Below are positions 5,534 through 48,295 of a DNA stretch of 64,000 nucleotides, piece after piece (positions within the stretch are counted from its first letter, which is position 1; every line of letters starts with the position of its first letter). Source of the stretch: Eledone cirrhosa (lineage: Eukaryota); contig OZ024741.1 in the NCBI GenBank assembly GCA_964016885.1, positions 253,394,001 through 253,458,000 of the forward strand. The letters run 5' to 3'. The position numbers and the translations under genes were made by a program. Under the pieces are notes generated by a model. The model ran no database searches. It was not told where the DNA came from and was given only the letters and a program-made list of their open reading frames with translations.

Positions 5534-6812
5534 AAGTAGGTGTATTTAATTTGTTGGAAGTCCGACAAATATAAATGTTTATAACTGATTTAGAGCACTC
5601 AACAAATTAGTGGAGTAAATATTCAATGATATTAAATAAATGGAAACTATATTTATAAAACCATATTTATTTTATTATATATATTTCAAGGGTACCGAGA
5701 CACATTGGTACGCTTTCCTCAGATAAAATACAAAGTTTGTTTTATAAATAGAGACATAGCTGTGAAAATCATACCTTATCGGTTGGATATTCTCTGGATA
5801 GTGGAAATTTATTAGGGATTTTTCAAACTTATGGGTGAATATGCAAATGAATATGTAAATAATTGAAAAACAACCGTTTATTTAAACGACTATGGAGAGA
5901 GAGAGAAGAGATAAGAGGAGAAGGATAAAATAGTGAGAGAGAGAGATGAAAGAAACAAGAGAAGATGAATAAAAACTCATATAACGTTAATTTGAGGGAA
6001 ATATATTCTAAGTATATATCTTAATAGTACGTGTATTTACAATTATTAGTAGTTTAAAATTTGTTTATAATATAATATTTTTCTTCTGTTATAAGTAGAA
6101 AAAAAAAAAAAAAAAATAGATGGGTATATCATGTTATAGATAATTGTTCTAATGAGTTATGAGGGATATTGGTTTTGTATTTAATGTAAATAAATATTAA
6201 GTTAAATTAAATTAAATTAACTGAGTTAAGAAGAATATTTATATTTGTATGATTTAAAATGGGAAGATACGGAAAAAATTCCGGTTTAATTTATTTATTC
6301 GTTAGTGTGAGACTATTTAGTCAAAATAGGTATAGATGTTGAAAAATACATTTAGCCAGAATCAGTTAGTGGTTATAAATCTATTGAAAAAATATTGACA
6401 AAATATTGATAAAGTATTGAAAAAATATTGAAAACGTATTGAAAAAATATTGAAAAATTTGAGAAAATTAAAAAAAAATAATAATAATAATAATTTATAA
6501 GAGATAAGTAATTTTTAAAGAAATAAAAATTAAAGAAATAAAAATTAAAGAAATAAAAATTATTAAAATTAAAATTTAAAAAAAAAGAATTATATACGTA
6601 TATATTTTATGAAACTTCAAGAAGTGGAATTACAGCAAATGTTATAGATATTATGATTTAGAGATATCAATATACTAAAACCAAGTGGATGAGATTGTTA
6701 TGGAAATAAGTAGAAATATTATAAGTATAATTATAAGTTATATATAGATCTGAATGTTGAATTCTGGCGATGTTTACAAGAATTAAATAAATTTGTTCTT
6801 AGATTAATAGAG
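5534..6812 (-). mobile_element. Penelope-like element 3' fragment (family A): GIY-YIG tail, 3' UTR and HHR
   Basis: Minus frame ends SINLRTNLFNSCKHRQNSTFRSIYNL* (stop 6731), matching the LLNxxxExxxxCxH tail; HHR near 3' end; flanked by (TA)n; 3' end repeated at 25381, 25966, 62300. Confidence 0.7.
5668..5730 (-). ncRNA. Type I hammerhead ribozyme (family A)
   Basis: TATTTTAT-CTGAGGA-AAGcGTACC..GGTACcCTT-GAAA-TATATA-TA-ATAAAATA: 8-bp stem I, intact core, palindromic stem III. Confidence 0.85.
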
Positions 6813-6845
6813 TATATATATATATGTATATATATATATATATAA

Positions 6846-7196
6846 CAAAATACACCCCCGTCCCACCACCTCCACCCCATCCACACCACCCCTTTCAATG
6901 TAAAGTTATGTTGGTGCCACAACATCCAGGCCGAAACAAATGAGATCGTGTAGGTGTCACAACAAAAAAACACACAGTCCACGCTGTAATGTGGCCGTGT
7001 AGGCAACACGGTAAAAACCTCCCAGACCCACACTGCAAATGTGGTTGGTGTTAGGAAGGGCATCCAGCTGTAGAAAACCCGCCAGACAGTCCTATGCGAG
7101 CAAGACAACCACTCTTGCCTCAAGTGGGAAAACTCCCGTCCAAACCCATGCAAGCGTGGAACATGGACGTTAAACGATGATGATGATGATGATGAT
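6846..7196 (+). mobile_element. RTE LINE 3' UTR fragment
   Basis: Matches 3' UTR of RTE copies at 27260-27598 and 61466-61810; ends ggacgttaaac(gat)n. Confidence 0.8.
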
Positions 7197-7199
7197 ATA

Positions 7200-45660: not shown

Positions 45661-46154
45661 ATATATATATATATATATATATATTTCAGTTAGTTGTGTG
45701 TGTTTCTGCTTTTGTACTCAGAAATTAGAAAATGAGGACCCACAAAACTATATATATTTTATTTGGCATATCACCGGACAGGTAATGGTAACAATTATTT
45801 CTATGTAGAAATTTGCTGATTCATACATTCATTAAAATTCAATTGTTTATGTCTCAGTATTTATATTGAAAAATGTTGCTATTTTATCTTGCAATAAGTA
45901 TAAAGAAGACAGTGCACAGTCACATATACAAAAGTGAACAGCACAAACACTAGATGGATACATACATGTTGTACACACACACTTCAAAACATGACTGATG
46001 TGATAATGAATGGGGATGGGGGTACTAAAACAGTGTGGAAAAGAGAGTGAAAAAGAGTGACCAGCACTATCAGATTTAATACATATTTGAGTATATATGT
46101 GAGTGTGTATACTTGGTTCTAAACACATTCACAGATACACATACTCATATATAT

Positions 46155-46490
46155 CATCATCATCACCGTTTTACGTCCGTTCTTCCATGCTAGCATGGGT
46201 TAGACGGGTTGTCCTGTTGTGGGCAGTGTCTGGTCGGCTGACCATGCCTTGCTCATACAGGAACTGATTTTGGCTTGGTTTTTACAGCTGGATGCCCTTC
46301 CTAACACCAACCTCATTTACAGTGAGTGCTGGGTGCTTTTTCTTTGTGGCGCCTACACGTCCACTTTACAGTGTGGGCTGGGTGCTTTTTTGCCGTGGCA
46401 CCTCCACGACCACCTTGCGGTGGGAGGATGTGGGGGCATATTGTACCCATGGGAGATCGGGTACTCTGTATTACTGCGTGACGCCAGAGG
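46155..46490 (-). mobile_element. Short RTE-derived element, second copy
   Basis: Reverse-complement homolog of 27815-28170. Confidence 0.8.
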
Positions 46491-46584
46491 TATATAAATA
46501 TATACACACACATATACATATCTCTATATATATACACACACATATCTATATATATACATACACATTTTATGTATATACATACAT

Positions 46585-48295
46585 AAGTGATAGGCAGCGC
46601 GACCTCGTACAAACCACCTAATAAATGTTGTAACCTCTGTATACTAGAGACCCACAATATTATCTTCTCCAACCGTAACCTACTTAACAAAAAATCTGAG
46701 GTGTTTGCAACTTGCCAGCACCGCTTCAGACATTCCTTCCAAAACTTTAAGCCCAATATATAGCAATGTCGGACTGGAACCAAACACCACATCTAGCATC
46801 AAACACCAGAGGCACACCTTATACCACATACCCAACACTAACTGATCTAATATAACACAAACAACGACATCCCTCTGGAACCCTTCGCAGGGAGAATACC
46901 CATTTATACCTCTACGTCAGGTGTGACAACATCCACCCACTTGAACTGCACTACACCGCTCTATAGGTAATTTAAGCATGAATTGATTGGTTTGGTAGTG
47001 TTGTGCGGAGGAAGCGCCTTCCTTAGACAGATGAAAAACGATTTAATCTAGTAACGCTGTTGAGCAGTAGGACCAGGACGCTGAGTGCAGAGAATGAATG
47101 TATTGCAACTGCCGTGCGGGTTGTACATATATGGATGATTTGGCGGTCAGAGAGGGGTCGTGAGGACTGCGGATTGACCTCTGGCCGGACCTGGTGATGA
47201 TTATCTTTCGACATCCAATGTAGCAAGCGATGACCCAGAACTTACCAGAGATCATTGGGTCCTGAAGTGATTCTGCAATCACCGCGCCTGGTCCTATGAG
47301 TAGACAACAACCACAGCGATCATTAATTTAGAATCCTCGCTCATCATCTATAATATTCATTTGTGGCACCTTACGATGGGGGTTAATTCACCATAATAAT
47401 ACGAACACCTTCAGCACAACTTAATTAAACTACTCTATAGTTAAAACACTTTATGCTTTAGAAATTTTTTGGAAGTTGCGCATAACCATAGAAATTAGGG
47501 TCTATATTGAGACACATTTCAATAGCTAGGTATAGAAACCTCGGAGTTACCTCCCCTCATGCATTAACTCCCCTTAGCCACACACACACTTCCGGGTGGT
47601 ATTCAATGTCGCTTCTCGAAACGTAACAGCCTCCTGTATTGAACTAAAGAACATCAGACTACGATTCTCTAACTGGATTGTCAAACGCTCAATATCGAAT
47701 TGTCGTGGATTATGTGAGGGGCATATAATCGAAAGATACACTCCCCTGGCCATGAAAATGTCGAAGTACATGAAATACTTGTCATCCCTTCGCTGTGCAT
47801 CTCCAATACTTTTAATATTTTTAATGCTTGCACTATTTTTAATGCTTATATCATTTCTCCACACACAGACTATATCAATCATATAAAGAATTTGCCACCA
47901 GATCAACCAACCTAACACTCTTGTTTACCTACCTAAGTGCCTCTACTACACGTATCTCTCTGCCACACTATATAAACAAGACGTACGTGCTTGCCACACA
48001 TATAACATTTGCACTATATAACCGCTTATCTTCATGTTGTATTTTAACCTGTATTTTTGATTTTTGATTGTACCTTTTAATATGAATGTAATCTCGAAGT
48101 GTGTACTGCCACTCTAAATTCTGTAATGAATGTTGACCCACAATATTTGCATATGTATCTGTATGTCTCTTGGCTGAAAAGGAGGTCATATAACTGTCCA
48201 TGCATTAATAAATTGCTCCGAAGAATCCAAACCTCGGTTTGGAGGAAACAGCTGTAAGCACAATAATGTTTTGAACAGTTCTTTGATTCTTATAT
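46585..48295 (+). mobile_element. Penelope-like element 3' fragment: GIY-YIG C-terminus, about 1.45 kb downstream region, HHR
   Basis: 46587-46763 reads VIGSATSYKPPNKCCNLCILETHNIIFSNRNLLNKKSEVFATCQHRFRHSFQNFKPNI*; HHR at 48214. Confidence 0.82.
48214..48260 (+). ncRNA. Minimal HHR (core CCGAAGA, U4C variant)
   Basis: TGCT-CCGAAGA-aTCCAAACC tc GGTTTGGAg-GAAAC-AGCT-GTA-AGCA; palindromic ACAGCTGT. Confidence 0.75.

What the first reader, a model, noticed from the sequence alone, without database searches (positions are those of the whole stretch)
5534..46763. Three distinct PLE families share the architecture GIY-YIG tail, 1-1.5 kb UTR, HHR, (TA)n
Seen: unannotated tail peptides SINLRTNLFNSCKHR (6731-6812, minus), LLNKEDELVTACKHR (33449, +) and LLNKKSEVFATCQHR (46680, +). 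Each is followed on the same strand by a long UTR and an HHR near the 3' end, with no evident nucleotide similarity between families. Known: LN-x-(R/K)-x-E...C-x-H closes the GIY-YIG domain in some PLE clades. Inference: this ties the HHR inserts to autonomous PLEs; clade (Naiad- or Neptune-like) is uncertain.
Basis: partly seen in the sequence, partly recalled or inferred. Interest (0 to 1): 0.72.

Follow-up and report, generated by a model that had tools for sequence, protein, structure and literature searches.

The report
Three Hydra-clade Penelope retrotransposon stubs
These are three cut-short copies of abundant Penelope-like jumping genes of the known Hydra group; their long non-coding ends share no alignable sequence, yet each family carries a hammerhead-ribozyme motif and a small hairpin present twice, which likely marks where copying into DNA starts and would explain their back-to-back insertions.

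Summary
The architecture is real. The three peptides end the ORFs of three Penelope-like families; longer genomic copies carry RT plus C-terminal GIY-YIG (one intact 811-aa ORF). DKT, RWx, CxCx5C, CxxC/CxH and no CCHH make them Hydra clade (Craig 2021), not Naiad or Neptune; no selenocysteine signal. They differ from published Hydra elements in 3' UTR length (1.05-1.54 kb against about 0.2-0.3 kb) and in ribozyme cores: canonical (F1), U4C (F3, 99 of 100), and C3-A8 mismatched (the window's F2 subfamily; sister subfamilies have U3-A8). Each family has two fixed 3' ends 80-165 nt apart, each 6-8 nt before a bulged hairpin. In 67 of 68 resolved inverted pairs one arm uses each end, and the extra tail is as often on the shorter arm (23) as the longer (20): two priming events, not simple fold-back. 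The third copy has only a degenerate TA flank. Hairpin function and ribozyme activity are untested. This scan had already noted Hydra stubs, twin hairpins and a mismatched core on other DNA. Verdict: new members of a known clade, with a testable start signal that I did not find in print.

The parts
6731..6813 (-). F1: 5'-truncated ORF end (N..CxH close of the GIY-YIG domain) and stop; (TA)n lies directly 5' at 6813-6844
5624..6730 (-). F1 3' UTR, 22% GC, to the short-end site
5668..5730 (-). F1 minimal type I hammerhead, canonical core (CUGAGGA here), 8-bp stem I, palindromic stem III (dimer type); predicted cut after 5676
5535..5623 (-). F1 tail (family mode 92 nt); this copy uses the long end, followed by (TA)19 at 5497-5534
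5597..5616 (-). F1 hairpin 1, 7 nt 3' of the short-end site
32951..33448 (-). F2 inverted arm: 418 nt of 3' UTR with hammerhead (core 33133) plus 80-nt tail; long end, (TA)17 at 32917-32950
32999..33022 (-). F2 hairpin 1, 8 nt 3' of the short-end site, inside the tail
33446..33559 (+). F2 5'-truncated ORF end and stop, joined to the inverted arm with a 3-nt overlap
33560..34612 (+). F2 3' UTR to the short end, then (TA)9 at 34613-34630
34505..34600 (+). F2 hammerhead fold (minimum-energy structure is the three-way junction) with C3-A8 mismatched core CUGAGAA; predicted cut after 34595
46585..46763 (+). F3 5'-truncated ORF end (CxxC..E..N..CxH) and stop
46764..48299 (+). F3 3' UTR, 40% GC, to the short end; degenerate TA/CA flank follows
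48214..48260 (+). F3 minimal type I hammerhead with U4C core CCGAAGA, palindromic stem III (dimer type); predicted cut after 48256

Best explanation
The three stretches are 5'-truncated copies of three Hydra-clade Penelope-like retrotransposon families whose full-length members encode RT plus C-terminal GIY-YIG and whose copies end at two fixed sites, likely because the protein binds a bulged RNA hairpin present twice and starts reverse transcription 6-8 nt upstream of either. Shown: protein domains, clade motifs, two ends, TA flanks, hairpin position, long/short pairing. Inferred: a tandem or read-through transcript carries UTR, hammerhead, hairpin 1, tail, hairpin 2; the nuclease nicks (TA)n; one priming gives a solo stub (F1 long end, F3 short end); nicks on both strands, each primed at a different hairpin, give two cDNAs that break off and join head to head (F2). 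Hammerhead cleavage is likely not required for spread. Odds: clade 0.95; two primings 0.75; hairpin as the RNA signal 0.6; cleavage dispensable 0.5.
For: Intact 811-aa ORF for F3, 689-aa open frame for F1, whole ORF in pieces for F2. Hydra motifs in all three. Ends: 159 short and 122 long among 319 distinct 3' ends (21 read-through, 17 unresolved); TA flank at 139 of 159 and 117 of 122; tail modes 92, 80, 165 nt. Inverted pairs: 67 of 68 resolved are long+short (80 found, 12 set aside; 64 of 65 after merging four duplicated F2 copies, binomial p 6e-19). Among abutting unequal pairs the tail is on the shorter arm in 23 and the longer in 20. Hairpin within 12 nt of the short end in 30 of 36, 63 of 79, 41 of 43 tailed copies and of the long end in 3 of 4, 6 of 7, 9 of 11 read-through copies; commonest offsets 6-8 nt; 12 motif hits in the window against 2.9 in shuffles. 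Seen by eye in published Hydra consensi from coral and sea cucumber, with variants in a copepod. Two internal RT starts matching the tail were shown in vitro for a Poseidon element, where hammerhead mutants still inserted (PMC11167929).
Against: No experiment or RNA read shows starts, binding or cleavage. The hairpin motif was defined from these sequences after reading earlier scan notes, so its fit to them is not an independent test; 2 of the 12 window hits are not at element ends, and Hydra-1_Obim's consensus shows no clear copy. In the minimum-energy folds F2's two hairpins and F1's hairpin 2 are replaced by other pairings. One pair is short+short; 7 pairs have over 150 nt between arms and may be separate events. 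Loci were picked by similarity, so they lean to young copies. No labelled RT phylogeny; Pfam gave no RT hit and only a sub-threshold GIY-YIG hit, PDB none.
Confidence: 0.75

Rival explanations
1. The two ends are set at the DNA level: the nuclease recognises the hairpin or tail as DNA and resolves an intermediate there, with one RT start.
For: Craig et al. ascribe the tail to EN-mediated resolution; the D. virilis EN needed tail DNA for recognition (as cited in PMC11167929). Sequence alone does not tell an RNA from a DNA hairpin.
Against: Hairpin 2 lies outside every long-ended insertion, so it must act on the donor or template; the same 6-8 nt offset holds at both ends in three families; in vitro the tail corresponds to two RT starts.
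Confidence: 0.15
2. Inverted arms arise by self-priming fold-back of one cDNA begun at the long end, the copy stopping at hairpin 1.
For: Self-priming was proposed for palindromic junctions (PMC3846280); 22 pairs have nearly equal arms and arms are 76-100% alike, mostly over 90%.
Against: It needs the tail on the longer arm; in 23 abutting pairs, the window's F2 among them, the tail is on the shorter arm. It does not explain hairpin 2.
Confidence: 0.07
3. Naiad- or Neptune-like elements, possibly selenoprotein-coding.
For: Naiads occur in octopus and favour (TA)n; their lengths of 3.4-4.4 kb resemble these.
Against: EN is C-terminal; DKT not DKA/DKG; no CCHH; TGA at conserved Cys 0 in F3, at most 4 of 52 in F1, at most 1 of about 51 in F2.
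Confidence: 0.01
4. Non-autonomous retrozyme-like units that carry a peptide remnant and spread on their own.
For: Many short hammerhead-only copies exist; retrozymes are described as PLE derivatives (bioRxiv 10.64898/2026.07.22.740005).
Against: 5' ends are scattered from about 40 nt to over 3 kb with no fixed unit, colinear with the autonomous element.
Confidence: 0.02

Closest known systems
Hydra clade of C-terminal EN+ Penelope-like elements, including Hydra-1_Obim (Craig et al. 2021, PMC8557442; read abstract, sections 3, 11, 12, 15, 18, passages, supplement parts 1, 2, 52, 53 of 59 and search hits)
   Same: One ORF, RT then GIY-YIG; DKT, RWx, CxCx5C, CxxC and CxH around E and N, no CCHH; hammerhead near the 3' end; (TA)n target; 5' truncation.
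   Different: Units of 3.4, 3.5 and 4.2 kb against 'generally <3 kb'; UTRs 1.05-1.54 kb against about 0.2-0.3 kb in the consensi seen; N-termini and hammerheads differ by eye from Hydra-1_Obim; U4C and U3-A8/C3-A8 cores, whereas all Hydra cores listed in File S2 are CUGANGA; tails 80-165 nt against 30-40 nt; hairpin not mentioned in the main text.
Poseidon element PAc of Anolis (Frangieh et al. 2024, PMC11167929; read parts 1-2 of 4)
   Same: Two internal RT starts that define the tail; both target strands nicked and extended; hammerhead not needed for insertion in vitro.
   Different: Other clade; starts lie in an AC-rich stem-loop inside the ORF about 30-40 nt apart; no shared twin hairpin reported in the parts read.
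Minimal PLE hammerheads and core variants (Cervera and de la Pena 2014, PMC4209133, parts 1-2 of 4; Perreault et al. 2011, PMC3088659, section 8 and passages)
   Same: Type I minimal motifs working as dimers; U3-A8 known in Schistosoma PLEs; U4C known in a viroid, with reduced activity.
   Different: Here U4C is fixed in a family of about 3,850 exact matches and an uncompensated C3-A8 core in a subfamily of several hundred; F2 has a 5-bp stem III and long stem II.
Adineta vaga Penelope families (Arkhipova et al. 2013, PMC3846280; passages)
   Same: Inverted pLTRs with a tail on one of them; 0.9-1.5 kb spacers before the 3' pLTR; Asn-rich inserts in the ORF.
   Different: There the spacers differ between copies (captured host DNA); here the UTR is shared by the family at 81-98% identity.

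Membership tests
Hydra clade PLE | Single ORF with RT and C-terminal GIY-YIG | tested here: met
   F3 intact 811 aa; F1 and F2 covered end to end by tblastn
Hydra clade PLE | DKG modified to DKT | tested here: met
   DKT in all three; DK[TS] in 104 of 120 homologues
Hydra clade PLE | N-terminal RWK motif | tested here: met
   RWR in F2 and F3, RWC in F1: W kept, third residue differs
Hydra clade PLE | CxCx5C linker before the EN | tested here: met
   Cys codons kept in 38-51 of 40-51 copies
Hydra clade PLE | No CCHH motif in the EN; CxxC and CxH beside the conserved E and N | tested here: met
   One Cys only between the GIY- and YIG-equivalent motifs; CxxC..E..N..CxH in all three
Hydra clade PLE | No IFD, no N-terminal CxC domain | tested here: met
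   RT3-RT4 spacing matches published Hydra proteins by eye only
Hydra clade PLE | Canonical hammerhead near the 3' end | tested here: inconclusive
   Canonical in F1 (93 of 100 listed C3, all G8); fold present but core variant in F2 and F3; activity not testable
Hydra clade PLE | Insertion into (TA)n | tested here: met
   256 of 281 terminal ends TA-flanked
Hydra clade PLE | Generally shorter than 3 kb (descriptive) | tested here: not met
   Units 3380, 3468, 4207 nt; a tendency in the paper, not a diagnostic
Hydra clade PLE | RT groups with Hydra references in a phylogeny | not testable with these tools
   Labelled references exist only as supplement text; an unlabelled tree puts the three in one 9-row branch (100/99) with an Argonauta protein
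Naiad | N-terminal GIY-YIG, DKA, IFD, CCHH, no canonical hammerhead | tested here: not met
Naiad selenoproteins | In-frame UGA at conserved Cys and SECIS | tested here: not met
   no Rfam SECIS hit in the UTRs; SECISearch not available
Neptune | CCHH in the EN and CX2-5CxxC linker | tested here: not met

The most novel reading that the evidence does not exclude
Hydra-clade PLEs share a clade-wide bulged RNA hairpin, used twice per transcript, that positions the RT on both nicked strands of a (TA)n target; this twin priming makes the tail and the head-to-head structure, while the hammerhead can carry weakened or mismatched cores without stopping amplification.
Probability: 0.55. Interest if true: 0.65.

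Novelty: new member of a known kind. Interest (0 to 1): 0.42.

Why it matters
How PLEs make tails and inverted ends, and what the hammerhead is for, are stated open questions (PMC8557442 section 15; PMC11167929). Three families with unrelated UTRs isolate what is kept: a hammerhead fold and a 17-34 nt hairpin at a fixed distance from both ends. With an intact F3 ORF in the genome, the start signal can be tested directly, and three natural core states allow a test of whether cleavage matters. The architecture itself is known.

Tried and rejected
Rfam on the whole window gave only simple-repeat artefacts among the 150 of 376 rows shown and no hammerhead or SECIS hit in the UTRs; a suspected C/D snoRNA in the F3 UTR was not supported. 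Open frames in the window's UTRs are 116 aa at most; their conservation across copies was not checked. Pfam and PDB were uninformative. A 120-nt F3 query found nothing in the genome, an artefact of the search, as the pattern count shows. No RNA holder listed. RNAalifold on 13 F2 hammerheads (one mis-cut) gave the fold but no two-sided changes. The F2 subfamily tree (86 of 98 cores) clusters the core types but has no root, so whether C3-A8 is derived or ancestral is open. Reading F2's core as a deletion of N7 was dropped once U3-A8 sisters with free N7 appeared. Paper searches: (0 hits on C3U/G8A); none showed the twin hairpin; Repbase and Dfam could not be searched; the preprint's supplement and 55 of 59 parts of the Craig supplement were not read.

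Full report
Observation. The window lies in a 3.0-Gb animal genome, rich in TA runs. I call the elements F1 (6813-5535, minus), F2 (33446-34612 plus, with an inverted arm 33448-32951) and F3 (46585-48299, plus). Each has a stop, 1.05-1.54 kb of non-coding DNA, and a hammerhead motif 50-110 nt before the short end. The UTRs share no blastn hit. F1 and F2 end in (TA)n; F3 ends in a degenerate TA/CA tract.

Autonomous relatives. DNA searches of the own genome returned 40 of 40 scored candidates for each query, from 1008-3013 first-look candidates. F3 copies are 98-99% alike and one has an intact 811-aa ORF; F1 has a 689-aa open frame, F2 the whole ORF in pieces. Unit lengths from tandem copies are 3468 (F1), 3380 (F2) and 4207 nt (F3). 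The proteins are 36-42% identical to each other. The nearest named homologue of F3 is an Argonauta protein at 38%, so the host is likely an octopod; that is inference.

Clade. The order is RT (YRDD) then GIY-YIG. All three have DKT, an RW motif, CxCx5C, CxxC..E..N..CxH and no CCHH. These are the marks of the Hydra clade (PMC8557442 section 11), which includes one octopus family of 2507 bp with a hammerhead and (TA)n preference. Naiads have an N-terminal EN and lack canonical hammerheads. TGA does not replace conserved cysteines; the commonest TGA (31% at one F1 site) sits at an arginine, as CpG decay would give. A labelled phylogeny could not be run; an unlabelled tree of 59 of the 120 homologues plus the three families puts them in one supported branch, not as each other's closest kin. 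Published Hydra 3' UTRs that I could see are about 0.2-0.3 kb, so these are four to seven times longer.

Hammerheads. F1: 2942 exact matches, G8-A9 in all 100 listed, N7 free, C3 in 93; dimer-type stem III. F3: 3852 matches, CCGAAGA in 99 of 100 listed; U4C is a known natural variant with reduced in vitro activity. F2: the window's core is CUGAGAA; 483 matches, A8 in 97 of 100 listed, this exact core in 88. Contigs of a public run showed C-to-T at position 3 in about half the depth, which led to the sister subfamilies: 4220 matches with U3-A8 and free N7, a covariant known from Schistosoma PLEs. The C3-A8 copies cluster on a tree (6 changes against 26 shuffled) and include full-length copies. 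Single changes at 3 or 8 abolish cleavage in a Poseidon hammerhead; C3-A8 itself I found untested. That this subfamily spread with weak or no cutting is inference.

Two ends. Among 319 distinct 3' ends, 159 stop at a short site and 122 at a long site 92, 80 or 165 nt further; 21 read through into the 5' UTR of a tandem copy and 17 were unresolved. Both ends are TA-flanked (139 of 159; 117 of 122). Of 80 head-to-head pairs, 12 had a read-through or unresolved arm; 67 of the other 68 pair one short with one long end (p 6e-19 after merging duplicates). That a tail is often on one end only is published; the count is mine. With 30 more loci, arms abut in 65 of 72 mapped pairs; the tail is on the shorter arm in 23, the longer in 20, and arms are about equal in 22. 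A shorter arm cannot have copied a tail its partner lacks, so simple self-priming fails for those pairs, the window's F2 included.

Hairpin. Earlier scan notes pointed to twin hairpins; I then found in all three families RCUC-stem-loop-U(U/A)-GAGY 6-8 nt after both ends, with different inner stems (counts under Best explanation). The window holds 12 matches against 2.9 in shuffles; 10 lie at element ends, two of them in a family not used to define the motif. By eye it is in the published Hydra-2_Amil, Hydra-1_Ajap (twice) and Hydra-2_Ajap consensi, in variant form in Hydra-1_Crog, and not clearly in Hydra-1_Obim. Against: minimum-energy folds do not always form it, and the motif was drawn from these data. 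The words hairpin and stem-loop do not occur in the main text of PMC8557442, hairpin not in PMC3846280, and searches showed no description; this is not a full survey.

Mechanism. Best reading: the RT-EN protein binds a hairpin on a tandem transcript, nicks (TA)n and primes just 5' of it; use of both hairpins on opposite nicks gives the head-to-head insert with one tail. This follows the in vitro behaviour of a Poseidon element. Binding, start sites and cleavage are untested here, and no RNA run was listed.

Verdict. The value lies in the comparison: what three unrelated UTRs keep. The scan had noted the hairpins and a mismatched core on other DNA; those notes are leads, and the counts above are my own tests.

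Noticed in passing
window 29269-29441, 39240-39342, 53808-53992, 56496-56584: Mini head-to-head or tail-only copies of the F2 group in (TA)n, too short to hold the hammerhead core; in public contigs the last 60 nt of F2 are about 40-50 times deeper than the core region (depth is not copy number).
   Followed up: partly
window 25385-25580, 25971-26183, 62345-62486; 4512-4654, 22919-23092: Short 3'-end copies of F1-like and F3-like subfamilies, some with hammerhead and hairpin.
   Followed up: partly
window 26623-26744, 59814-60029, 60329-60385: Another hammerhead family in palindromic stubs; carries the same hairpin and a tail before (TA)n.
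   Followed up: partly
window 23345-24200: Two near-identical short elements with a CUGACGA core and inverted ends, in opposite orientation.
   Followed up: no
window 55017-55040 (-), 60680-60726 (+): Two more hammerhead motifs in short TA-flanked inserts.
   Followed up: no
window 36011-36471: 460-nt near-perfect palindrome (89%) without an evident hammerhead core.
   Followed up: no
window 1-4507: 72-nt tandem array, about 63 copies at 94-95%, with 18/27-nt subunits; may be a repetitive exon.
   Followed up: no
window 5181-5495, 9507-9857, 26188-26527, 45301-45656, 50325-50656, 51537-51873: Young 320-350 nt SINE-like repeat, 92-97% alike, beside (TA)n.
   Followed up: no
window 8275-9078, 26762-27213, 37570-38058, 54039-54870, 61871-62168: Diverged fragments of one LINE-like family; the peptide at 37570-37700 (-) looks RTE-like (label recalled).
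   Followed up: no
L188:5565-6494 (-); L067 and L107: Further Hydra-type families in this genome, one 33% and others 67-72% identical to F3 over parts.
   Followed up: no
L093:3551-5983 (-): F3 protein has two Asn/Ser/Thr-rich inserts between RT and EN, absent or shorter in F1 and F2.
   Followed up: no
L215-L218: One F2 pair repeated four times at 44-kb spacing, a segmental tandem duplication.
   Followed up: no
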